Sequence record: OP114733
Reading direction: 5' to 3' (one strand)
From: Escherichia phage vB_EcoM-pEB20
DNA: 64,000 bases
Shown here one piece after another: positions 30,980 to 54,552 of the stretch. Each line of letters starts with the position of its first letter. The stretch's first letter is position 1. Under the pieces are notes generated by a model that searched no databases, was not told where the DNA came from, and was given only the letters and a program-made list of their open reading frames with translations. The translations under genes and the position numbers were made by a program.

Positions 30980-31453
30980 ATGTTATTATCAGGCGCAAAA
31001 TATAAAGAAGAAAAACAAAAATTTTATGATGCACAGAACGGTAAGTGTCCTATTTGCCACCGTGAATTAGACCCTGATGTTCAAGGTAACCATCTTGACC
31101 ACGACCACGAATTAAACGGGCCAAAAGCAGGTAGAGTTCGTGGGTTACTCTGTTCTCTGTGCAACGCAGCAGAAGGTCAAATGAAGCATAAGTTCAACCG
31201 TTCCGGTCTTAAAGGTCGTGATGTCAACTACCTAGAATGGCTTGAAGCTCTTCTTGCTTATTTGAAACAAGATTATTCTGATAATAATATCCATCCTAAT
31301 TTTGTTCCAGACAAAACTAAAGAGTTCTCAAGACTAGGTAAAGAGGAAATGATGGCCGAGATGCTTCAAAGAGGATTTGAATATAATGAATCTGATACTA
31401 AAACACAATTAATAGCTTCATTCAAAAAGCAGCTTAGAAAGAGTTTAAAATGA
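30980..31453 (+). CDS. 49: recombination endonuclease VII (Holliday junction resolvase)
   Basis: 157 aa MLLSGAKYKEEKQKFYDAQNGKCPIC...HLDHDHE; near-identical to T4 gp49. Confidence 0.95.
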   Translation: MLLSGAKYKEEKQKFYDAQNGKCPICHRELDPDVQGNHLDHDHELNGPKAGRVRGLLCSLCNAAEGQMKHKFNRSGLKGRDVNYLEWLEALLAYLKQDYSDNNIHPNFVPDKTKEFSRLGKEEMMAEMLQRGFEYNESDTKTQLIASFKKQLRKSLK

Positions 31454-33267
31454 AAATTGAAAAAGAAATTGAAGGATTAATTCATAAAACTAATAAAGAT
31501 CTTTTGAACGAGAACGCTAATAAAGATTCTCGTGTTTTTCCAACTCAACGGGACCTTATGGCTGGTATTGTGTCTAAGCACATTGCCAAAAATATGGTCC
31601 CGTCTTTTATTATGAATGCGCATGAAAGCGGAATCATTCACATGCATGATATTGATTATTCTCCTGCTCTTCCGTTTACCAATTGCTGTTTAGTCGATTT
31701 AAAGGGGATGCTTGAGAATGGATTTAAATTAGGCAATGCTCAAATTGAAACGCCTAAATCTATTGGTGTTGCTACTGCAATTATGGCACAAATTACTGCA
31801 CAAGTTGCTTCACACCAGTATGGCGGAACTACATTTGCGAATGTCGATAAAGTTCTTTCTCCTTATGTTAAACGCACATACGCTAAACATGTTGAAGATG
31901 CAGAAAAATGGCAAATCGCTGATGCGTTGAATTATGCTCAATCCAAAACAGAAAAAGATGTCTATGACGCGTTCCAAGCTTATGAATATGAAGTAAATAC
32001 TCTCTTTAGTTCAAACGGACAAACGCCTTTTGTAACAATTACATTTGGTATGGGAACTGACTGGACTGAACGAATGATTCAGAAGGCAATTCTTAAAAAC
32101 CGCATTAAAGGTCTTGGTCGTGATGGAATAACTCCTATTTTTCCTAAACTTGTTATGTTTGTTGAAGAAGGTGTTAATCTTTATAAAGATGATCCAAACT
32201 ATGATATTAAACAACTTGCGTTAGAATGTGCAAGCAAAAGAATGTATCCTGACATTATTTCGGTTAAGAATAATAAAGCTATTACCGGTTCTTCAGTTCC
32301 AGTTTCTCCAATGGGTTGCCGTAGTTTCTTGAGCGTATGGAAAGATTCGACTGGTAATGAAATTCTTGATGGACGTAATAATCTTGGTGTTGTAACACTG
32401 AATCTTCCTCGTATCGCATTAGATTCTTATATTGGAACACAGTTCAATGAACAGAAATTTATCGAATTGTTTAATGAACGAATGGATCTGTGTTTTGAAG
32501 CTTTGATGTGTAGAATTAGTTCCTTAAAAGGAGTTAAAGCGACTGTTGCTCCTATTCTTTACCAAGAAGGTGCATTCGGGGTTCGTCTTAAACCTGATGA
32601 CGATATAATTGAGTTATTTAAAAACGGTAGAAGTTCAGTGTCTTTGGGATACATTGGTATTCACGAATTGAATATTCTTGTCGGTCGTGATATTGGACAA
32701 GAAATTTTAACTAAAATGAATGCTCATCTTAAACAGTGGACTGAAAGAACTGGTTTTGCTTTTAGTTTATATTCTACTCCTGCTGAAAACCTTTGTTATC
32801 GCTTCTGTAAACTCGATACAGAAAAATATGGAAGTGTAAAGGATGTTACCGATAAAGGCTGGTACACTAATAGTTTCCATGTTTCAGTAGAAGAAAATAT
32901 TACTCCGTTTGAAAAGATTTCTCGTGAAGCGCCATATCATTTCATTGCGACAGGTGGTCACATTTCTTATGTTGAACTTCCAGATATGAAAAACAATTTA
33001 AAGGGACTTGAGGCTGTCTGGGATTATGCTGCACAACATTTAGATTATTTTGGTGTTAATATGCCAGTGGATAAATGTTTTACATGCGGAAGTACTCATG
33101 AAATGACTCCCACTGAAAACGGATTTGTTTGTTCAGTTTGTGGAGAAACTGATCCTAAAAAGATGAACACAATAAGAAGAACATGTGGTTATTTGGGAAA
33201 TCCGAACGAACGCGGATTTAATCTCGGTAAAAATAAAGAAATCATGCATAGGGTTAAACACCAATGA
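31450..33267 (+). CDS. nrdD: anaerobic ribonucleoside-triphosphate reductase NrdD
   Basis: 605 aa; C-terminal glycyl radical motif RRTCGYLG and Zn ribbon CFTCGS...CSVCG; uninterrupted (no intron). Confidence 0.95.
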   Translation: MKIEKEIEGLIHKTNKDLLNENANKDSRVFPTQRDLMAGIVSKHIAKNMVPSFIMNAHESGIIHMHDIDYSPALPFTNCCLVDLKGMLENGFKLGNAQIETPKSIGVATAIMAQITAQVASHQYGGTTFANVDKVLSPYVKRTYAKHVEDAEKWQIADALNYAQSKTEKDVYDAFQAYEYEVNTLFSSNGQTPFVTITFGMGTDWTERMIQKAILKNRIKGLGRDGITPIFPKLVMFVEEGVNLYKDDPNYDIKQLALECASKRMYPDIISVKNNKAITGSSVPVSPMGCRSFLSVWKDSTGNEILDGRNNLGVVTLNLPRIALDSYIGTQFNEQKFIELFNERMDLCFEALMCRISSLKGVKATVAPILYQEGAFGVRLKPDDDIIELFKNGRSSVSLGYIGIHELNILVGRDIGQEILTKMNAHLKQWTERTGFAFSLYSTPAENLCYRFCKLDTEKYGSVKDVTDKGWYTNSFHVSVEENITPFEKISREAPYHFIATGGHISYVELPDMKNNLKGLEAVWDYAAQHLDYFGVNMPVDKCFTCGSTHEMTPTENGFVCSVCGETDPKKMNTIRRTCGYLGNPNERGFNLGKNKEIMHRVKHQ

Positions 33268-33734
33268 ATTATGATAGATTTTATCCTTGCGATTTTGTGA
33301 ATGGCCCTGGCTGCAGGGTCGTTCTTTTCGTTACAGGTTGTTTGCATAAATGCGAAGGGTGTTATAATAAATCAACATGGAATGCTAGAAATGGTATTCC
33401 ATTCACTGGAGAGACACTAGAACAATTGATTGAATGTTTGAATAATGATTATATAGAAGGATTAACTATAACCGGAGGAGACCCTCTCTATCCTGATAAT
33501 CGAGATGTTATTCATTGCATTGTTCAAACAGTAAAACATCTTTATCCCAATAAAAGCATTTGGTTGTGGACAGGATATAAGTTTGAAGATATTAAACAAC
33601 TAGAAATGCTTAAATATGTTGATGTTATTATTGATGGGAAGTATGAGAAAAATCTTCCGACTAAAAAGCTGTGGCGAGGATCAGATAATCAGCGACTTTG
33701 GTCAAATACCGATGGGGTGTGGAAACATGATTAA
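33264..33734 (+). CDS. nrdG: anaerobic RNR activating enzyme NrdG (radical SAM)
   Basis: 156 aa; CLHKCEGC radical SAM cluster motif. Confidence 0.9.
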   Translation: MNYDRFYPCDFVNGPGCRVVLFVTGCLHKCEGCYNKSTWNARNGIPFTGETLEQLIECLNNDYIEGLTITGGDPLYPDNRDVIHCIVQTVKHLYPNKSIWLWTGYKFEDIKQLEMLKYVDVIIDGKYEKNLPTKKLWRGSDNQRLWSNTDGVWKHD

Positions 33735-47886: not shown

Positions 47887-47926
47887 TATAATGTCATGGA
47901 CGGTAAACTAATTAAATGAGAGAAAT

Positions 47927-48562
47927 ATGAAAACTACTCCTATTACTATCGCTATTGACGCAATTATAAAACAAGCTTCTTCTTTGGCCGCTATGGCCAA
48001 AGTAATTAGTCAAAACCCTGCTCGTTATAATGCTATTCTAGAAACTCTTCGACGCCCTGGACTTAGTAATTATGAAAGCCGGGTAATTATTACAGGTGTT
48101 GGTAAGAATGCTAATATCGCAACTAAAGCTTCCGAGACTTTTGCTTCACTCGGTATCCCGAGTATGTACTTGAACACTGGGCATTATTCTCACGGTGATG
48201 CAGGATTCATTGCGCCTAATGATGTGTTGATTCATATTAGTCGTTCTGGTAAAACTGAAGAAATGATAGGCGTGGCTAAGCATCTTAAAATGATTCGTCC
48301 GAATGTCAAACAGATTCTGTTGCATTGTAACCCAGACATTCCACAAGAAAATGAAGCCCTTTTTGATTACTCTTTCTGTACAGGCATCGCGGTAGAGGTT
48401 GATGAGAATTCTCTGGCTCCGACTATGTCCACTACATTGTTGTTAGCGCTTATCGATACGTTTGCTATCAACCTTTCGTCTGAGCGTGGATTTACCTCTA
48501 ATGACTTCCTTAAGTTCCATCCAGGCGGTGCACTAGGTGCCATGTTACGAGGCGAACAATGA
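47927..48562 (+). CDS. SIS-domain sugar-phosphate isomerase (arabinose-5-phosphate isomerase-like, KdsD/GutQ family)
   Basis: 211 aa; GVGKNANIATKASETFASLG, HGD, LAPTMSTT and HPGGALG motifs align with the KdsD SIS domain; no CBS domains. Confidence 0.8.
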   Translation: MKTTPITIAIDAIIKQASSLAAMAKVISQNPARYNAILETLRRPGLSNYESRVIITGVGKNANIATKASETFASLGIPSMYLNTGHYSHGDAGFIAPNDVLIHISRSGKTEEMIGVAKHLKMIRPNVKQILLHCNPDIPQENEALFDYSFCTGIAVEVDENSLAPTMSTTLLLALIDTFAINLSSERGFTSNDFLKFHPGGALGAMLRGEQ

Positions 48563-48743
48563 AAGCAATAACAATAGGACTTTTACTATTGATGCTTGTC
48601 ATGACTATCTACTGGAGCTTAACGGCTCCAGTAATGATTCCAACACTTGTAATTGGATGGATTATGATTGGACTACAAGCAAAGTATGAATGCTTTAACT
48701 AGAATAGTGTACAATACTCCTACTTACCAATGAGGACTTCAAC

Positions 48744-50429
48744 ATGAAAAAAGCTGTTATTCTTGGTGCTGGACTGGCAACTCGTTTGTATCCAATAACG
48801 CACCATATTCCTAAGGTGCTTGTTAACTATAAACAAGACACTATTCTAAGCAATTTGTATACAATTTATTCTGACCTTGGCGCAGATGAAATTATTGTAG
48901 TAGTTCATTCAAAATTTGCTGAAACTGTTCGAGCTTATTGTGAGCAAGAAGGGTTCAATGTGACTATTCGTACAGTTGATGAAGCGTATGGTTCTGCTTA
49001 TGCTCTTGCTAAATTACACAAAGATTTAGACGGCCATAATGTAATTGTTAACTGGTGTGATATTATTCCTGATTTTGGTTCATGGTCTTGGAATGTTAAC
49101 GCAATCTATGTTAAGGGTGACGAATGTCGATATAATTTCGACGGTGAAAATATCACTAACGTAGGTTCAACAGGTGGTAATGTTGTAGGAATTTATCAGT
49201 TCAAAGACTGGGAATTCTATATGGGTTCTACTGATGAGGAAATTCATGAATACTGCAAAGGACGTGATTTCGTAGAATTCCTTTACGGCAGCGCATTCAA
49301 TAAATCAGAGCTTATGAATCTAATTGATTTAGGTGATATGCCTAAACTTGAAAAAGCTCATGAAGTTCGTGAACTTAATCGTAGTTTTAATGCAGTTGAA
49401 ATTGGTGAAGAAACTGTAACTAAATTCGCATTAACCGAACAGGGTCGAGCTCTTCAGAAAGATGAGATTTCATGGTATCTTAAAGTGAAATCAGATTCAG
49501 TTCCTCAGTTAGTTTCGGTAAATGAAAATAATTTTGAAATGGAACGTATTAAAGGTAAGCCGGCATTTGAATATATTAAATCCAAATCAAGTCTTGCTCG
49601 TCCACAAATTGTTGATGCAATTTTAGATGCACTGAAATTCAGCACAGACACTTATTTTGTAAGTCCTGAAACTGTTCGTCGTGATTTCACTAAAGAGTTC
49701 TATACGAAAGTTATTGATCGTTGTGAAAGCATTCAACCATTGATTGATTCATTTGGTAAAATCACACATGTGAACTACACTAAGATTGGACGTCTGAAGC
49801 CAATGCTGAAACAAGCTTTAGAACACCTTATTCGTTATCATAACCGTTCTCAGGGACAGTACTCTGTTATTCATGGTGACCCGAACTTCAGTAATACTAT
49901 GATTACTGATAACGGCGAAGTCAAGTTTATAGACCCTCGTGGATATTTTGGCGAAACCAAGATTTATGGGCCAAAATTGTATGATGAAGCTAAAGTGCTT
50001 TATGCTGTTTCAGGATATGATGAATTCAATGCTAATCCGACCTGGGGACAGTTTACTATTGATGAAACAACTTGTAATGTGACTATTAACATCAATCCAT
50101 TAGTTTACAAATATGGAAAGATGAGTTCGTTTAACGAGTATCATCATTTGGCTGTAGCAATTATCTGGATTGCATTAGGTGGTTATTTCAAGAATAATCC
50201 ACTTAAAGCGGTAGCCGCATATTATAAAGGTATGGAACTTCTGACTAAGCAATTACGTAACATGGGCCGTGTACTTCAGGACGGCTCTATTAGTTATGAC
50301 GTAGCAGAACCTGTAACGGCTACTCTGATTACAAAAAATCCTGGTAAATGGGTACTAACTGATAAAGAAACCGGTGTTTCCTATCGTCCAATCGGTGGCG
50401 ATATCACTCATCAATGGGAACGAATTTAA
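48744..50429 (+). CDS. bifunctional sugar-1-phosphate nucleotidyltransferase / kinase-like protein
   Basis: 561 aa; N-terminal GAGLATRLYP (RmlA/GlmU-type NTase); C-terminal HGDPNFSN...D.E resembles APH/choline-kinase fold. Confidence 0.7.
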   Translation: MKKAVILGAGLATRLYPITHHIPKVLVNYKQDTILSNLYTIYSDLGADEIIVVVHSKFAETVRAYCEQEGFNVTIRTVDEAYGSAYALAKLHKDLDGHNVIVNWCDIIPDFGSWSWNVNAIYVKGDECRYNFDGENITNVGSTGGNVVGIYQFKDWEFYMGSTDEEIHEYCKGRDFVEFLYGSAFNKSELMNLIDLGDMPKLEKAHEVRELNRSFNAVEIGEETVTKFALTEQGRALQKDEISWYLKVKSDSVPQLVSVNENNFEMERIKGKPAFEYIKSKSSLARPQIVDAILDALKFSTDTYFVSPETVRRDFTKEFYTKVIDRCESIQPLIDSFGKITHVNYTKIGRLKPMLKQALEHLIRYHNRSQGQYSVIHGDPNFSNTMITDNGEVKFIDPRGYFGETKIYGPKLYDEAKVLYAVSGYDEFNANPTWGQFTIDETTCNVTININPLVYKYGKMSSFNEYHHLAVAIIWIALGGYFKNNPLKAVAAYYKGMELLTKQLRNMGRVLQDGSISYDVAEPVTATLITKNPGKWVLTDKETGVSYRPIGGDITHQWERI

Positions 50430-50794
50430 TGCAACTATGCTTCGATGTCGATGATTGTATAACCGAATGGAATAACAATCGTGATTACGCTAATTTTAAA
50501 CCGGACCTAGAAATGGTGGCAGCCATTAATGCCTTGTATGACGCAGGGCATACCATCACGCTTTACACTGCTCGTGGTATGAAGTCTGTAGGTCCTGGAC
50601 GTATTGCTGTAGATATCCTACCAGGTCTGTTACAGAACTTAGCTAACATTGGTTTGAAGTATCATAATTTGCTAACACATAAACCAGTATATGATTGGAT
50701 TATCGACGACAAAGCTATGCGTCCTGACGAATTCAAAGCTCTTATGAATAAAGGCGAATTCGAAACATTTAAATCATATAAACCAAATCTATAA
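50429..50794 (+). CDS. HAD-superfamily phosphatase-like protein
   Basis: About 121 aa; motif I FDVDDCIT; start 50429 (TAATG overlap) or 50414. Confidence 0.6.
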   Translation: MQLCFDVDDCITEWNNNRDYANFKPDLEMVAAINALYDAGHTITLYTARGMKSVGPGRIAVDILPGLLQNLANIGLKYHNLLTHKPVYDWIIDDKAMRPDEFKALMNKGEFETFKSYKPNL

Positions 50795-50840
50795 TAATTT
50801 AAGTAAGACCTGCAAAAACCGTCGCATCAATTAACGCGAG

Positions 50841-52010
50841 ATGCAAAAAATGAATACTTTTAAAATTGGAACGAATTTCGATTTAGCTCTTCTTGATAAA
50901 ATCGTAGAGCTCAATAAAACTTATCCTAATAGCTTGATAAATGAAGTATACGGCTCTACAAGAGAAATGGCTTTTGTAGCAGCCAGACCTGATTTTAGGC
51001 TTCCTGACGTTGACAAAAAGATGTTAGAAGACTACGTTAAACGTTGTAACGAATTAGGTATTTGCTTTAACTATACACTCAACACGATAAATCCTGGTTC
51101 AAAAAGAGAACTAGTTGAGTGGAAGAAGAAAGCTATTCAGGATTATGTTCAGTATCTTTGGTCAATAGGCGTATGGCGTATTACTATCGCTAACCCTGTT
51201 GTTATGGAAATTGTTCGTGAAGTCAATAAAGACATTGAGATTGAAGTTTCAACAATTCTACATGTCGATGCTGTAACTCAAATCAAATACTTGCATGACC
51301 AGTATAATATCAAAAAGGTCTGCTGTGGAATTCATAAGAACCGTTCAGTTTCTTTCCTGAAGCGTGCAGCAGAGTTTTGCAATAAGAACAATATAATATT
51401 TGAAGTTCTTGTAAATGAGTTCTGTTCTAATGCTGGTAAAGGGTATACAACACATTGTAGCTATCGTGACTCTTGCTATATTTTCCATAGTACTGATGTT
51501 ACAGCTGATGATGCTAAATCCTTAAACGGATATCCTATGCAGCACTGTATTAAAGCTCGTGATACAGACCCATTTAACTGGTTGAGAACTCGTTTTGTTC
51601 GTCCTCAAGATTTGAAACTTTATAATGATATTGGTATCACTCAATTTAAAGTTTCAGGACGTACAGGTAGCACAGACTACATTTTGAAAGTTCTTGAAGC
51701 ATACGCTTCTGAAAAGTTTGAAGGTAATTTGTTAGAACTGTGGAAGCCTTTAGAGACTATTTTCACTCTTGAAAACGAAACTGAGTTTTCACATACGGTA
51801 AATATTGAAACCTCTTTGTTAGACGGCTTTTTAGAAAAAAGGTGGTTCAGACATCCAGATTTCGATTGTGCTAATGAAATCTGCGGGACGACGTGTACAT
51901 ATTGTGAAAGATATTATAAACGTCAGTTATCTAAAAATGGGTTATCAGAAAACTCTATATCTATTATTGATATAACTAACTCTGATGACGCTTTGAGGTA
52001 CCCGGAATGA
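50841..52010 (+). CDS. peptidase U32-family-like protein (putative Fe-S dependent enzyme)
   Basis: 389 aa; EVLVNEFCSNAGKG and QFKVSGRTGSTDYI resemble U32 signature regions; C-terminal Cys cluster C-x4-C-x3-C-x2-C; assignment tentative. Confidence 0.5.
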   Translation: MQKMNTFKIGTNFDLALLDKIVELNKTYPNSLINEVYGSTREMAFVAARPDFRLPDVDKKMLEDYVKRCNELGICFNYTLNTINPGSKRELVEWKKKAIQDYVQYLWSIGVWRITIANPVVMEIVREVNKDIEIEVSTILHVDAVTQIKYLHDQYNIKKVCCGIHKNRSVSFLKRAAEFCNKNNIIFEVLVNEFCSNAGKGYTTHCSYRDSCYIFHSTDVTADDAKSLNGYPMQHCIKARDTDPFNWLRTRFVRPQDLKLYNDIGITQFKVSGRTGSTDYILKVLEAYASEKFEGNLLELWKPLETIFTLENETEFSHTVNIETSLLDGFLEKRWFRHPDFDCANEICGTTCTYCERYYKRQLSKNGLSENSISIIDITNSDDALRYPE

Positions 52011-52246
52011 TTTCTAGAAAAACTTTTAACCACCAACTTAATGAAGAGATTTTGACTATAAAACTGAACACTAACGAACAAATTCTTAAAAAGGCCCTGA
52101 TGGGCCTGTTTGAAACTAAAGCGGCTAAAGTGATTAAAGAACCTGTTCAATTGGAATACTACGCTGATGCATTTCTTCATAGTGTTCTTGGAAGTATCGA
52201 TGCTGAAGCTTTACGTTATATCAACATTGTCAAGAAATTCAAATAA
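52007..52246 (+). CDS. hypothetical protein
   Basis: 79 aa ORF; ATGA overlap. Confidence 0.45.
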   Translation: MISRKTFNHQLNEEILTIKLNTNEQILKKALMGLFETKAAKVIKEPVQLEYYADAFLHSVLGSIDAEALRYINIVKKFK

Positions 52247-52288
52247 GCTTTACGAATTGAGTATATAATAAATTGTATTGAGGTAAAC

Positions 52289-53005
52289 ATGGGAAAACAT
52301 AACACAATGAAATATATCAAAGCCGCAGATTTTCAAACCGCATTTAAAGCAGTCAATCGTGAAATTTTAGAAAACCCGGAATTCGTAACTGATTCTCGTA
52401 TTGGACGTTGTAATGAAATTGGGTCTATGACAGTAGTTGTTGACACTCCATCATCATTCAAAATGACCGACCCACGTATTAACCGCATCTCTTATGAATA
52501 TGCCGAAGACTTCTGGAAGTTTATGATTTCTGGTGGTACCAACGCAGAAGAAGCGTTTAAGGCATATCCTAATGTCGCTAAATTTATTTCTAAACCAAAA
52601 TCAGATGTTTTGCCGGCGAACTTCAACACTTTCTATGGTCCTCGCATTGCGGCCCAATTACCAGCTCTTCTAAAAGAACTTAAAGAGAAGCCTAACTCTC
52701 GAAGAGTTGTGTTCCAAATTCTAGAAAGTTCTGATCAGGCTTTGCTTGATTCAGACGAAACGCTTGAATATCCATGTACTGACTCAGTGACTTATTATAT
52801 TCGTGATGGTAAGCTTTATACCCACTGTCATATGCGTTCTCAGAACTGTGCTGTTGTTATGCAGTTGGATTTTTATCTCCAAGGAAAATTACTTCATTAT
52901 ATCGCTAACGAATGCGGTGTAGAAGTTGGTGATTATACTCATACCATGGTAAGTGCCCATGTGTTTGAACGTGATTTTGATTATGTTAAAGGATTCCTTG
53001 ACTAA
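52289..53005 (+). CDS. 42: thymidylate-synthase-fold pyrimidine hydroxymethylase (gene 42-like dCMP hydroxymethylase)
   Basis: 238 aa; PNSRRVVFQI and catalytic-Cys region YPCTDSVTYYIRDGKLYTHCHMRSQN align to TS/dCMP-HMase motifs; more divergent from T4 gp42 than neighbours. Confidence 0.7.
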   Translation: MGKHNTMKYIKAADFQTAFKAVNREILENPEFVTDSRIGRCNEIGSMTVVVDTPSSFKMTDPRINRISYEYAEDFWKFMISGGTNAEEAFKAYPNVAKFISKPKSDVLPANFNTFYGPRIAAQLPALLKELKEKPNSRRVVFQILESSDQALLDSDETLEYPCTDSVTYYIRDGKLYTHCHMRSQNCAVVMQLDFYLQGKLLHYIANECGVEVGDYTHTMVSAHVFERDFDYVKGFLD

Positions 53006-53904
53006 TGGCTATTTTCCGCGTACCTATCTTGAGTATGCGGTCTTATGAAACTGGACAGTATGCTATCCTTAAGGATGGCAACTTCCAACTTCATTTGCAC
53101 CGTGCTAATCCGGGTGATGTGATTACATATCCACGTAATGCATCTGATATTAAAGAATGCGAACGTCTTTTCCCAGAATTTAAGTTTGTTCCGTTATGGT
53201 ATAAAGATAACGCATATAATACTCGTAAATATTTCTGGTCTGAAAATGAATTTGTAGTTGATTCGTTGATTGCTTATTATGATTGTGATTTTCTCATCAC
53301 GGATATCACTGGATATGATGGTGCTTTTGACGTAGAATTCAATTTCAATATCACTGCAGACCCTAATAAACCACGTTTTTATATTGACGAATTCTTAAAA
53401 ACTGATATGTTGTCGGTTAATCGTTCACTTCAAACTACTGTGTTGAATGAACGTCAAAAAGAAGTGCTGGTTAACGCAGGTGCAGATGGTAATAAGATTA
53501 TCGTAACGCAGAAAGTTATACGTCCTTCCATCATGCAGCGTCTTGTAGGTGATTTGGCTCCTATTCATCTAGATGGTATTTTTCATCCATTTCGAATTAG
53601 TGACCCGTGCTATCGTTTTGAACAAGTGGTTGAATGTGCAATTCAATTAGGCCAACCGCTTTATATAACCGATCCAAATAATAGCTTCGACAGAAATAAG
53701 TATCCTGAAGAAGCACTGATTCGAATTTTTAAACCAACTAAAACTGAGTACTATCAAATTCTTAAAGGACGTCCGAAGATTCAATATTTCGAAAATCCTG
53801 AAGAAGTATTCCATCCAGGTCTTGGTGAGTTCATCTACTTTAACGCTTTAATTTCTTCGCCGTATAATATACCTAAATATGAAGATGTCGTAATCGAGGA
53901 ATAA
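53005..53904 (+). CDS. hypothetical protein at the position of T4 beta-glucosyltransferase
   Basis: 299 aa; no recognised motif; synteny only. Confidence 0.55.
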   Translation: MAIFRVPILSMRSYETGQYAILKDGNFQLHLHRANPGDVITYPRNASDIKECERLFPEFKFVPLWYKDNAYNTRKYFWSENEFVVDSLIAYYDCDFLITDITGYDGAFDVEFNFNITADPNKPRFYIDEFLKTDMLSVNRSLQTTVLNERQKEVLVNAGADGNKIIVTQKVIRPSIMQRLVGDLAPIHLDGIFHPFRISDPCYRFEQVVECAIQLGQPLYITDPNNSFDRNKYPEEALIRIFKPTKTEYYQILKGRPKIQYFENPEEVFHPGLGEFIYFNALISSPYNIPKYEDVVIEE

Positions 53905-53905
53905 A

Positions 53906-54454
53906 ATGGCTAAAATTATTTTAGTAGATGGCCCGGATAATGCTGGTAAAACAACTTTCATTAATGACATAATGGAAATTAGTGAAAGATATGTAAAGAT
54001 TGATTTCCCTAAACGAACAGTTGATGGGCGTTTCGATGTTAAGTCTCGAAATGAAGTTGGCTGTTTCGAAACGATGTTGAATTATTTAGACCCTACTAAG
54101 ATTTATCTGTTAGACCGTGGATATATTAGTAACTGGGTTTATGGACGTATTCGACAAGATGCGGACTCGATTCTTGACGTTTATGAACAGGACTATGTTC
54201 GTCTTTGCCAAAACCATGATGTGTTCACAATTATTTTAACACGTAACGAAATGACTGAAAGTTTTGAAGACGACCTTATTACTTTGTCTTCACTCAGTTT
54301 CAATACAGTCATTTCACATTTTGAAGAGTTTGCAATTCATAACAAAATCCAAACGTATCAATTACTTAATCATGATGGTGCTAACAAAGTTATAGGATTT
54401 AATGCAAGCGAACGTAATTATTTGATTACAGAAATTATCAAATGGGCTCGTTAA
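53906..54454 (+). CDS. P-loop kinase-like protein
   Basis: 182 aa; Walker A VDGPDNAGKTT at N-terminus as in NMP/small-molecule kinases. Confidence 0.6.
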   Translation: MAKIILVDGPDNAGKTTFINDIMEISERYVKIDFPKRTVDGRFDVKSRNEVGCFETMLNYLDPTKIYLLDRGYISNWVYGRIRQDADSILDVYEQDYVRLCQNHDVFTIILTRNEMTESFEDDLITLSSLSFNTVISHFEEFAIHNKIQTYQLLNHDGANKVIGFNASERNYLITEIIKWAR

Positions 54455-54552
54455 GAGCCATTTAAAGTTTTAAATGCTGTATAACCCTTAGTATATAATC
54501 ATCTTATCTTTTAAACATGAGTAAAATATAATGATGCCTATGGAAAAATACA

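What the first reader, a model, noticed from the sequence alone, without database searches (positions are those of the whole stretch)
50841..52010. U32-family-like protein with C-terminal Cys cluster inside the DNA-modification module
Bacterial U32 proteins (RlhA, TrhP, UbiU/V) are now linked to O2-independent hydroxylation of pyrimidine or aromatic C5 positions. A phage homolog sitting between sugar-nucleotide enzymes and the hmC-forming enzyme could act on a nucleotide or on the sugar. That would be a new role in phage DNA hypermodification. The family assignment rests on remembered signature regions (EVxVN..C..AGKG, KVSGRTGS..Y) and a C-x4-C-x3-C-x2-C cluster, so it is tentative.
Basis: inference. 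Interest (0 to 1): 0.7.

Follow-up and report, generated by a model that had tools for sequence, protein, structure and literature searches.

The report
Phage U32 enzyme, likely oxygen-independent cytosine hydroxylase
This RB69-type phage gene encodes an iron-sulfur "U32" protein that most likely lets the phage make its unusual DNA base, 5-hydroxycytosine, without molecular oxygen, using the host metabolite prephenate; this would be the first viral enzyme of that kind, and no experiment has yet tested it.

Summary

One correction: the downstream enzyme is not an hmC synthase. It is RB69 gp48, shown in 2026 to make 5-hydroxy-dCMP with FMN and O2. That makes the hydroxylase idea more plausible.

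New evidence:
- In 15 of 17 T4-like loci and 13 of 35 unrelated metagenomic phage loci, the U32 gene lies within about 620 bp of a chorismate mutase and/or DAHP synthase, including fusions of the two. These enzymes supply prephenate, the oxygen donor of the U32 hydroxylases RlhA, TrhP and UbiU/V.
- Profile comparison ranks RlhA, the rRNA cytidine C5-hydroxylase, as the closest E. coli paralog.
- All four inspected 5hoC-type clusters lacking the gene include three from phages of aerobes (Acinetobacter, Pseudomonas).
- The window also encodes the anaerobic reductase NrdD/NrdG.

Best reading (about 0.5): a prephenate-dependent, O2-independent route to 5-hydroxycytosine, parallel to gp48. It is untested. 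E. coli Dhakaviruses lack the gene, this window has no chorismate mutase, and two key papers could not be read.

The parts
50841..52010 (+). U32-family Fe-S protein (389 aa), the RB69 gp50 ortholog. Proposed prephenate-dependent, O2-independent pyrimidine C5-hydroxylase.
   Evidence: ORF. Pfam PF01136 at 42.2 bits against GA 22.4. PHROG 5757 at 886 bits. 388/389 identical to RB69p050. AF2 model with pLDDT 93.1 and pTM 0.91. 5d88 is the top fold hit.
51129..51707 (+). Stretch matching the Peptidase_U32 profile (aa 97-289); part of the TIM-barrel-like core.
   Evidence: Pfam stretch. hhalign against the RlhA family covers aa 56-291 with probability 98.4% and E 5.8e-15.
51423..51548 (+). Internal cysteine group C195, C206, C212 and C236 (aa 195-236); candidate ligands of a [4Fe-4S] cluster.
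   Evidence: All four are invariant in 33 and in 121 homologs. C206, C212 and C236 align with RlhA C169, C176 and C192. The TrhP alignment instead pairs C195/C206 with C170/C177, so the ligand assignment is ambiguous.
51867..51905 (+). C-terminal C343-x4-C348-x3-C352-x2-C355 cluster; candidate site for a second metal or Fe-S centre.
   Evidence: Invariant in 121 homologs. A four-Cys C-terminal cluster is kept in members only 23-37% identical, with different spacing. RlhA also has a C-terminal Cys group (C572, C580, C611, C614), two of which are essential (PMC5727448).
52007..52246 (+). 79-aa ORF whose start overlaps the U32 stop codon (ATGA); the RB69p049 ortholog, function unknown. It is not a chorismate mutase.
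   Evidence: PHROG 8601 at 173 bits. No CM_2 hit even at E 10. It lacks the catalytic residues that the phage chorismate mutases keep. Relatives L013, L018, L021 and L026 carry both this ORF and a chorismate mutase.
52289..53005 (+). Thymidylate-synthase homolog: the FMN/O2-dependent 5-hydroxy-dCMP synthase (RB69 gp48 ortholog).
   Evidence: 236/238 identical to RB69p048. The RSQNC...LDF motif fits the D169N/N177D signature. Function, FMN binding and 18O2 labelling are reported in PMC13326640.
47927..48562 (+). Arabinose-5-phosphate isomerase (KpsF/KdsD type), the RB69 gp55 ortholog.
   Evidence: TIGR00393 at 113 bits and PHROG 5670. Proposed role in PMC13326640.
48744..50429 (+). Bifunctional sugar kinase / nucleotidyltransferase (AfhE-like); intact here, split as RB69p052/053 in the reference genome.
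   Evidence: Pfam NTP_transferase plus weak kinase-family hits. PHROG 4098 at 981 bits. Role in PMC13326640. RB69 annotation.
50414..50794 (+). HAD-family sugar phosphatase (AfhF-like), the RB69 gp51 ortholog.
   Evidence: TIGR01689 at 46 bits. Role in PMC13326640.
53005..53904 (+). Putative DNA arabinosyltransferase (RB69 gp46:47 ortholog); intact here.
   Evidence: PHROG 3891 at 520 bits. Table 1 of PMC13326640. RB69 annotation.
53906..54454 (+). Thymidylate-kinase-like nucleotide kinase (RB69 gp45 ortholog).
   Evidence: PHROG 761 at 155 bits. Kinases of this type sit directly upstream of U32 in Marfa-like, Klebsiella and Proteus phage loci and near it in metagenomic loci.

Best explanation
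The ORF encodes a U32-family iron-sulfur enzyme, the ortholog of RB69 gp50. I propose that it hydroxylates C5 of a cytosine nucleotide, most likely dCMP. The oxygen would come from prephenate, not from O2, as in the bacterial U32 proteins RlhA (5-hydroxycytidine in 23S rRNA), TrhP (5-hydroxyuridine in tRNA) and UbiU/V. The product, 5-hydroxy-dCMP, would enter the pathway already fed by the FMN/O2-dependent thymidylate-synthase homolog gp48: phosphorylation, incorporation into DNA, then arabinosylation. The phage would then have two routes to 5-hydroxycytosine, one needing O2 and one not. This parallels TrhO/TrhP for tRNA and UbiH/I/F versus UbiU/V for ubiquinone. Such a second route would matter for a phage that replaces every cytosine and replicates in facultative anaerobes. 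Shown here: family membership, fold, the conserved cysteines, and the gene-neighbourhood and host patterns. Inferred: use of prephenate, the substrate, the product, and the link to anoxia. The internal cysteine group would hold a [4Fe-4S] cluster. The C-terminal four-Cys cluster would hold a second centre that passes the two electrons to an acceptor.
For: (1) Family and fold. Pfam U32 scores above its cut-off. The model is confident and its best match is the U32 structure 5d88.
(2) Closest characterised relatives are the two nucleic-acid pyrimidine C5-hydroxylases. A deep family profile against single E. coli sequences gives RlhA 97.5% (E 5e-12), TrhP 96.6% (E 6e-10), UbiU 92.7% and UbiV 4.5%. 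Against an RlhA-family alignment it gives 98.4%, E 5.8e-15, and the RlhA residues C169 and C176 (essential) and E161 (nearly so) align with C206, C212 and E188 (mutational data in PMC5727448).
(3) Prephenate link. A chorismate mutase that passes Pfam CM_2 (38-65 bits; GA 27), and keeps the EcCM residues R11, R28, K39, E52, S84 and Q88 by my reading of the alignment, lies right after the U32 gene, often overlapping it by 4 nt, in 15 of 17 T4-like loci. In 13 of 35 unrelated metagenomic phage loci the neighbour is a chorismate mutase, a DAHP synthase, or a fusion of the two. In 50,697 phage records this chorismate mutase occurs in only 54, and every listed hit lies in such a cluster. Prephenate is the oxygen donor for UbiU/V and is required by RlhA and TrhP (PMC10990095; PMC5727448).
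(4) Position. The gene lies 1.2-1.9 kb upstream of the 5-hydroxy-dCMP synthase in all 15 IMG/VR T4-like loci that have it. Among cultured phages it was found only in such clusters.
(5) Need for a second route. gp48 takes its oxygen from O2 (18O2 labelling; PMC13326640). The window also encodes the oxygen-sensitive anaerobic reductase NrdD and its activase NrdG.
(6) Host pattern. 57 Acinetobacter and 20 Rhizobium phage records carry the gp48-type enzyme. The top ten organism names among the 221 U32-bearing records are all Enterobacterales, and the listed hits add only other Enterobacterales and Shewanella. The Acinetobacter phages Mokit and Acj9 and the Pseudomonas phage PspYZU05 have the same cluster without U32 or chorismate mutase.
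(7) In metagenomic phages, U32 clusters with arabinose-5-P isomerase, an AfhE-like enzyme, a glycosyltransferase and a Tmk-like kinase, and no gp48-type enzyme is nearby.
Against: No experiment has tested this protein.
- Expression of gp48 alone (5hodC detectable by MS), more strongly with the dNMP kinase, puts 5hodC into DNA aerobically, so gp50 is dispensable under those conditions.
- E. coli Dhakaviruses have the gp48-type enzyme but no U32. The gene is therefore not a general requirement in enteric hosts.
- This window and all Mosigviruses lack the chorismate mutase. The strongest contextual evidence thus comes from relatives.
- Only three of the four canonical U32 cysteines align, and the mapping differs between the RlhA and TrhP alignments.
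- Known U32 hydroxylases act on RNA polymers or a lipid. None is known to act on a free nucleotide.
- The absence of gp48-type genes near U32 in metagenomic phages rests on flanks of +/-10 kb and on clade-specific search patterns.
- The authors of PMC13326640 guessed 'sugar or heterocycle reductase'.
- He et al. 2026 and Mahler et al. 2025 could not be read and may already say otherwise.
Confidence: 0.5

Rival explanations
1. It is the same kind of enzyme, but it acts on the polymer. It would hydroxylate cytosines in newly made phage DNA, or fix residual unmodified C, much as RlhA and TrhP act on RNA polymers.
For: All characterised nucleic-acid U32 hydroxylases act on polymers (PMC5727448; PMC10990095). 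The chorismate mutase / DAHP synthase link fits this reading just as well.
Against: The protein has no DUF3656 or other extension of the kind RlhA and TrhP carry beyond the U32 domain. The family sits next to mononucleotide enzymes: Tmk-like kinases, dCMP deaminase and an HD 5'-deoxynucleotidase. In RB69, 5hoC is made at the mononucleotide level.
Confidence: 0.15
2. It uses prephenate or has U32 chemistry, but on another target. It could hydroxylate host tRNA or rRNA, a quinone or another aromatic compound, or turn prephenate into a small molecule. The purpose would be host takeover, not DNA modification.
For: U32 substrates are diverse (RNA and ubiquinone precursors). The family has about 1663 cluster representatives, some of them cellular, such as a Lachnospiraceae MAG, so the ancestral substrate is unknown. 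In L001 and L003 no sugar-activation genes are nearby.
Against: In cultured phages the gene occurs only inside 5hoC/arabinosylation clusters. It is co-oriented with the 5-hydroxy-dCMP synthase and often translationally coupled to its neighbours. It is absent from hmC-type T4-like phages of the same hosts: no hit below 80% identity among 50,697 records.
Confidence: 0.12
3. It is a redox helper, not a hydroxylase. This is the 'sugar or heterocycle reductase' suggested in PMC13326640. For example, it could reduce the flavin of gp48, or reduce a sugar or base intermediate.
Confidence: 0.1
4. It is a true peptidase (collagenase-like), as the database annotations say.
For: It is annotated 'peptidase', 'collagenase' or 'U32 family peptidase' in many records. 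The family name derives from reports of collagenolytic activity (PMC5727448).
Against: No catalytic mechanism for proteolysis is known in this family. Characterised members are Fe-S hydroxylation factors. The conserved cysteines, the prephenate-pathway neighbours and the DNA-modification context have no proteolytic rationale.
Confidence: 0.03

Closest known systems
RlhA (YdcP), E. coli 23S rRNA 5-hydroxycytidine-2501 synthase; U32 family
   Same: It has a U32 domain and is the best-scoring E. coli paralog (97.5%, E 5e-12; 98.4%, E 5.8e-15 against the family alignment). The essential C169, C176 and E161 align with C206, C212 and E188. It has a second, C-terminal Cys group, and it makes 5-hydroxy-cytosine at C5. 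It needs Fe-S biogenesis and prephenate (PMC5727448).
   Different: RlhA is 653 aa, has DUF3656, and acts on a 50S precursor. The phage protein is 389 aa, has no DUF3656, lacks the fourth canonical Cys (R240 aligns with C196), and has a compact C-x4-C-x3-C-x2-C tail. It is not an ortholog.
TrhP (YegQ), prephenate-dependent tRNA ho5U34 factor, paired with the O2-dependent TrhO
   Same: It has a U32 domain (96.6%, E 6e-10). The two-route logic, one O2-dependent and one prephenate-dependent pathway to the same hydroxypyrimidine, is the arrangement proposed here for gp48 and gp50 (PMC12783734; PMC6599085, listed).
   Different: TrhP acts on tRNA uridine and has a further C-terminal domain. The O2-dependent partner here is a flavin-binding thymidylate-synthase homolog, not a rhodanese-type TrhO.
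UbiU/UbiV, the O2-independent ubiquinone hydroxylases
   Same: They are U32 proteins with a [4Fe-4S] cluster held by four Cys, and prephenate was shown by 18O labelling to be the oxygen donor (PMC6747719; PMC10990095). Their fourth Cys is variably placed, as may be the case here.
   Different: They form a heterodimer, use the lipid-binding partner UbiT, and act on a lipid. The NCBIfam UbiU model gives 18 bits against a cut-off of 440, and UbiV is barely detectable.
RB69 gp48 / DLP3 gp80 / HY126 enzyme: the flavin- and O2-dependent 5-hydroxy-dCMP synthase
   Same: It has the same proposed product, lies in the same gene cluster and is encoded about 280 bp downstream.
   Different: Its fold (thymidylate synthase), cofactor (FMN) and oxygen source (O2) are unrelated. 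It has been characterised by experiment, and gp50 has not.
Mk0906 (PDB 5d88), the only solved U32 structure
   Different: Sequence identity is 11-14%. It is 247 residues long, has no counterpart of the C-terminal Cys-cluster region, and its function is unknown.

Membership tests
Peptidase_U32 superfamily (PF01136) | Significant match to the family profile above the curated gathering score. | tested here: met
   42.2 bits against GA 22.4, E 7.4e-11, aa 97-289 on profile positions 2-192 of 233. Distant family members also pass.
Peptidase_U32 superfamily (PF01136) | U32 fold, a TIM-barrel-like core as in 5d88. | tested here: met
U32 Fe-S hydroxylases (RlhA/TrhP/UbiU/UbiV) | Four conserved Cys (CX6CX15CX3/4C or a variant) holding a [4Fe-4S] cluster. 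| tested here: inconclusive
   C195, C206, C212 and C236 are invariant. C206, C212 and C236 align with RlhA C169, C176 and C192, but R240 aligns with C196. The TrhP alignment gives another register. The spacing is x10, x5, x23, not the canonical one. Metal binding cannot be tested here.
U32 Fe-S hydroxylases (RlhA/TrhP/UbiU/UbiV) | Dependence on prephenate as co-substrate and oxygen donor. | not testable with these tools
   Only indirect evidence is available. A chorismate mutase and/or DAHP synthase lies within about 620 bp of the gene in 28 of 52 loci across unrelated phage lineages, and the chorismate mutase is confined to these clusters among cultured phages. This window has none.
U32 Fe-S hydroxylases (RlhA/TrhP/UbiU/UbiV) | O2-independent hydroxylation of an aromatic or heteroaromatic carbon. 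| not testable with these tools
   No activity data exist for this protein. The inference rests on its position next to the 5-hydroxy-dCMP synthase and on the host pattern.
RlhA orthologs | U32 domain plus DUF3656 (PF12392) plus a long C-terminal region, about 650 aa in all. | tested here: not met
   No PF12392 hit and only 389 aa. RlhA homologs carry PF01136 plus PF12392. Only the presence of a C-terminal Cys group is shared.
UbiU / UbiV equivalogs | Score above the NCBIfam equivalog cut-off. | tested here: not met
   NF047963 UbiU gives 18.4 bits against a cut-off of 440. hhalign to UbiV gives 4.5%.
Radical SAM enzymes | A CX3CX2C motif conserved in the family, within a radical-SAM core. | tested here: not met
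   C348-x3-C352-x2-C355 has that spacing in the window protein, but there is no PF04055 hit. The motif lies after the barrel. Distant members have C-x2-C-x2-C instead.
AroQ chorismate mutase (for the 79-aa ORF at 52007-52246) | CM_2 profile match and the catalytic Arg/Lys/Glu/Gln residues. | tested here: not met
   No CM_2 hit at E<=10, whereas the genes at the corresponding position in KLB31 and Virsaitis27 score 38.5 and 44.6 bits. The catalytic residues are absent.

The most novel reading that the evidence does not exclude
Phages that replace cytosine with glycosylated 5-hydroxycytosine carry a dedicated oxygen-independent hydroxylase. It would be a compact U32 Fe-S enzyme that takes the hydroxyl oxygen from prephenate and puts it on C5 of dCMP. 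Many of these phages also bring their own chorismate mutase or DAHP synthase to raise the prephenate supply. This would be the first viral U32 hydroxylase and the first one acting on a free nucleotide. It would also be a new class of auxiliary metabolic genes (shikimate-pathway enzymes serving DNA hypermodification), and a soluble single-substrate system in which prephenate-dependent hydroxylation could at last be reconstituted in vitro. In the large metagenomic phages that lack a gp48-type enzyme near the cluster, it would be the only source of the hydroxyl acceptor.
Probability: 0.45. Interest if true: 0.85.

Novelty: new variant of a known kind. Interest (0 to 1): 0.72.

Why it matters
(1) The only demonstrated route to 5-hydroxycytosine in these phages needs O2. 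Yet their hosts live largely without it, and the phage carries an anaerobic ribonucleotide reductase. A second, O2-independent route would explain how modification, and with it resistance to restriction enzymes and CRISPR, is kept up in the gut. This bears on phage therapy with Mosigvirus-type phages.

(2) No U32 hydroxylase has yet been reconstituted in vitro. PMC10990095 says so explicitly. A 389-aa phage enzyme acting on a soluble nucleotide would be a much easier model than enzymes acting on ribosome precursors, tRNA or polyprenyl phenols.

(3) Phage-encoded chorismate mutase and DAHP synthase-chorismate mutase fusions next to this gene point to a new kind of metabolic hijacking, aimed at prephenate.

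(4) The idea gives clear, cheap tests: anaerobic infection, knockouts and 18O-shikimate labelling. It also predicts that Dhakaviruses and Mosigviruses differ in their dependence on oxygen.

Tried and rejected
- A plain sequence search of the PDB found nothing. Only fold comparison recovered 5d88.
- The first hhalign runs used a shallow 33-sequence profile against single E. coli sequences and were too weak to interpret, at 4-78% probability. They were replaced by a 160-sequence profile.
- I tested whether the 79-aa ORF after the gene is a diverged chorismate mutase. It is not: there is no CM_2 hit, the catalytic residues are missing, and relatives carry both genes.
- I tested whether the DAHP_synth_1 neighbour in L002 is KDO8P synthase, which would tie it to arabinose-5-P and not to prephenate. 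DAHP synthase models score 216-237 bits against 63 for KDO8P synthase.
- I considered a radical-SAM reading of the C-terminal CX3CX2C motif and rejected it.
- A search of the whole window for chorismate mutase or DAHP synthase with my own HMMs found none, even at E 10.
- The promoter and terminator scan was no better than chance and was not used: 28 sites found against 25.9 expected.
- The AFDB fold library was unavailable.
- Contigs of distant cellular homologs could not be looked up, so the ancestral cellular context is unknown.
- He et al. 2026 (Nat Chem Biol) and Mahler et al. 2025 (Cell Host Microbe) are not held. Six full-text searches found no paper linking a phage U32 protein or chorismate mutase to 5hoC (find). 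One of those searches was poorly chosen and returned noise.
Full report
**What is there.** The window is a T4-like Mosigvirus genome segment. The region 47900-54500 is 97-98% identical in DNA to RB69 and many relatives. The flagged ORF (50841-52010, + strand, 389 aa) is 388/389 identical to RB69p050, NP_861740.1. The gene is clearly real:
- It matches PHROG 5757 at 886 bits.
- Full-length copies occur in 221 phage records.
- There are 282 homologs in the word-indexed protein search and 1663 cluster representatives at E<=1e-3 in an exhaustive profile search.

**Relation to the characterised U32 proteins.** I compared a 160-sequence profile of this subfamily with single E. coli sequences.

| E. 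coli protein | Probability | E-value |
|---|---|---|
| RlhA | 97.5% | 5e-12 |
| TrhP | 96.6% | 6e-10 |
| UbiU | 92.7% | 4e-7 |
| UbiV | 4.5% | - |

Against an alignment of RlhA homologs the match is 98.4%, E 5.8e-15, over aa 56-291. In that alignment C206, C212 and C236 pair with RlhA C169, C176 and C192, and E188 pairs with E161. RlhA C169 and C176 are essential, and E161 is nearly so (PMC5727448). The fourth canonical Cys (C196) faces R240. The invariant C195 could replace it, as happens with the displaced ligands of UbiU and UbiV (PMC6747719). The TrhP alignment uses another register, so the ligand set is unresolved. RlhA also has a C-terminal Cys group, two of whose members are essential. 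The phage protein lacks DUF3656 and fails the UbiU equivalog model. It is not an ortholog of any characterised member.

**Correction to the context.** The downstream thymidylate-synthase homolog (52289-53005) is 236/238 identical to RB69 gp48. Lee et al. (NAR 2026, PMC13326640) showed that RB69 DNA carries arabinosylated 5-hydroxycytosine, not hmC. They also showed that gp48 makes 5-hydroxy-dCMP, binds FMN, and takes its oxygen from O2, by 18O2 labelling. The upstream genes are the arabinose-5-P isomerase, the AfhE-like kinase/nucleotidyltransferase and the AfhF-like phosphatase of the UDP-arabinose branch. The same paper lists RB69p050 only in a table, as 'sugar or heterocycle reductase', without any test. 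Its discussion remarks that the RlhA and TrhP pathways are unrelated to gp48. It does not note that the phage encodes an RlhA relative two genes away.

**The main new observation.**
- In Klebsiella phage KLB31 and Erwinia phage Virsaitis27, the gene after U32 overlaps it by 4 nt and is an AroQ chorismate mutase (Pfam CM_2 38.5 and 44.6 bits; GA 27).
- HMMs built from confirmed examples find a chorismate mutase there in 15 of 17 T4-like loci. Serratia phage LC53 has one too.
- These proteins keep the EcCM active-site residues R11, R28, K39, E52, S84 and Q88 (the residue roles are from my own knowledge of the EcCM structure).
- In 50,697 phage records this chorismate mutase occurs in only 54, and every listed hit lies in a U32 cluster.
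- The link recurs in unrelated metagenomic phages with DnaE-type polymerases, on contigs up to 466 kb. U32 is followed by a DAHP synthase in L002 and L025; the NCBIfam DAHP synthase models score 216-237 bits against 63 for KDO8P synthase. It is followed by a chorismate mutase in L042 (55 bits). It lies next to DAHP synthase-chorismate mutase fusions in L039 (125 + 65 bits), L050, L036, L038 and L041.
- In all, 13 of 35 such loci show the link, and several of the remainder are truncated contigs.

DAHP synthase is the entry step of the shikimate pathway, and chorismate mutase makes prephenate. Prephenate is the oxygen donor of UbiU/V and is required by RlhA and TrhP (PMC10990095; PMC5727448). 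I know of no other biochemical reason for U32 proteins to travel with these enzymes.

**Distribution.**
- Among cultured phages the U32 gene was found only inside 5hoC/arabinosylation clusters, 1.2-1.9 kb upstream of the gp48-type gene. hmC-type T4-like phages lack it, since no hit falls below 80% identity.
- The gp48-type enzyme is in 373 records, including 57 Acinetobacter and 20 Rhizobium phages.
- Among the 221 U32 records, every organism name visible in the output is from Enterobacterales or Shewanella.
- In Acinetobacter phages Mokit and Acj9 and Pseudomonas phage PspYZU05, the same cluster runs from the phosphatase straight into the gp48-type gene.
- The window also encodes NrdD (572 bits) and NrdG. 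The phage is therefore equipped to make DNA without oxygen.
- The pattern is not perfect. E. coli Dhakaviruses have the gp48-type gene but neither U32 nor the isomerase. Mosigviruses (this window) and Marfa lack the chorismate mutase and would depend on host prephenate.

**Metagenomic clusters.** In many non-T4 loci, U32 sits with an arabinose-5-P isomerase, an AfhE-like enzyme, a GT1-like glycosyltransferase, a Tmk-like kinase or a HAD phosphatase. No gp48-type enzyme lies within 10 kb. None of these contigs appears among the IMG/VR contigs carrying that enzyme. The one thymidylate synthase nearby (L027) has the canonical D169/N177/L143 residues. This suggests that U32 supplies the hydroxyl acceptor there. 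The evidence is limited by the flank size and by clade-specific search patterns.

**Mechanism proposed.** gp50 would bind a [4Fe-4S] cluster through the internal Cys group and oxidise the cytosine ring of dCMP by two electrons. Prephenate would decarboxylate and deliver hydroxide to C5, following the scheme proposed for UbiU/V in PMC10990095. The products would be 5-hydroxy-dCMP, phenylpyruvate and CO2. The C-terminal Cys cluster would relay the electrons outward. The product would then join the gp48 pathway. Family, fold, conserved residues and genomic associations are shown here; every catalytic step is inferred. I put about 0.5 on this reading. I put about 0.15 on the same chemistry acting on DNA, about 0.12 on another target, about 0.1 on a reductase or helper role, and about 0.03 on a true peptidase.

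**Novelty.** The gene is annotated everywhere as 'peptidase'. In the held literature it appears only as an untested table entry. The Thanatos paper modelled its ortholog TH1_065 and still states that it has no hypothesis for the origin of the hydroxyl group. Full-text searches found no paper that connects a phage U32 protein or phage chorismate mutase with 5hoC. Two relevant papers could not be read. This is the main uncertainty about novelty.

Noticed in passing
window 31450-33267 and 33264-33734 (+): These ORFs encode the anaerobic ribonucleotide reductase NrdD (PF13597, 572 bits, plus a glycyl-radical domain) and its radical-SAM activase NrdG. Endonuclease VII lies just upstream at 30980-31453. 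NrdD homologs occur in 2909 phage records, and the ten commonest host genera are all facultative anaerobes.
   Followed up: partly
window 52007-52246 (+): This 79-aa ORF starts inside the U32 stop codon (ATGA). It is conserved (PHROG 8601, RB69p049) and its function is unknown. It is not a chorismate mutase, and some relatives carry it together with a chorismate mutase.
   Followed up: yes
window 48744-50429 and 53005-53904 (+): The AfhE-like gene (561 aa) and the putative arabinosyltransferase (299 aa) are single intact ORFs here. The RB69 reference annotates each as two genes (RB69p052/053 and RB69p046/047). This agrees with the statement in PMC13326640 that the splits are sequencing errors.
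   Followed up: partly
L039:7302-8357, L050:11085-12203, L036:8411-9433, L041:8332-9387, L038:3-971: Metagenomic phages encode DAHP synthase-chorismate mutase fusion proteins, with the DAHP synthase domain N-terminal and CM_2 C-terminal. L002 and L025 encode stand-alone truncated type I-beta DAHP synthases. All lie next to the U32 gene and look like shikimate-pathway auxiliary genes.
   Followed up: partly
L001:7447-9086, L003:7504-9083: In very large phages with DnaE-type polymerase (contig up to 466 kb), the U32 gene directly follows a dCMP deaminase. A thymidylate-kinase-like gene and UDG-fold genes lie nearby, and no sugar-activation genes are in view. The substrate there might be a uracil nucleotide and not a cytosine nucleotide.
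   Followed up: no
L027:5509-8479: Upstream of U32 in this 230-kb viral contig lie, in order, a canonical thymidylate synthase (244 bits; D169/N177/L143 retained, C168G), a GT1-like protein, a YfbR-type HD 5'-deoxynucleotidase and an AfhE-like gene.
   Followed up: partly
L010:5352-5990, L059:4854-5492; one search hits H1, H2, H8, H11: Homing endonuclease genes (Seg-like or GIY-YIG) are inserted at varying places in the modification cluster of relatives, for example between the phosphatase and the U32 gene. This window has no such insertion.
   Followed up: no
P0243 / P0266 (distant cellular homologs): U32 proteins of the same subfamily, 482-493 aa long, come from Lachnospiraceae-type contigs up to 1.25 Mb. 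They carry a C-terminal extension that matches DUF2621 (28 bits). Their genomic context could not be retrieved.
   Followed up: partly
L058 (Escherichia phage CLB_P2) and L074-L078, L087: Dhakavirus-type clusters have the gp48-type gene, the AfhE-like gene, the phosphatase, the glycosyltransferase and a kinase placed between the phosphatase and gp48. They lack both the arabinose-5-P isomerase and the U32 gene.
   Followed up: partly
window 50768-50795 (+): A sigma-70-like site (TTTAAA, 16 nt, TATAAT; 10 of 12 matches) lies in the 46-nt gap just upstream of the U32 ORF. The scan as a whole is no better than chance.
   Followed up: no
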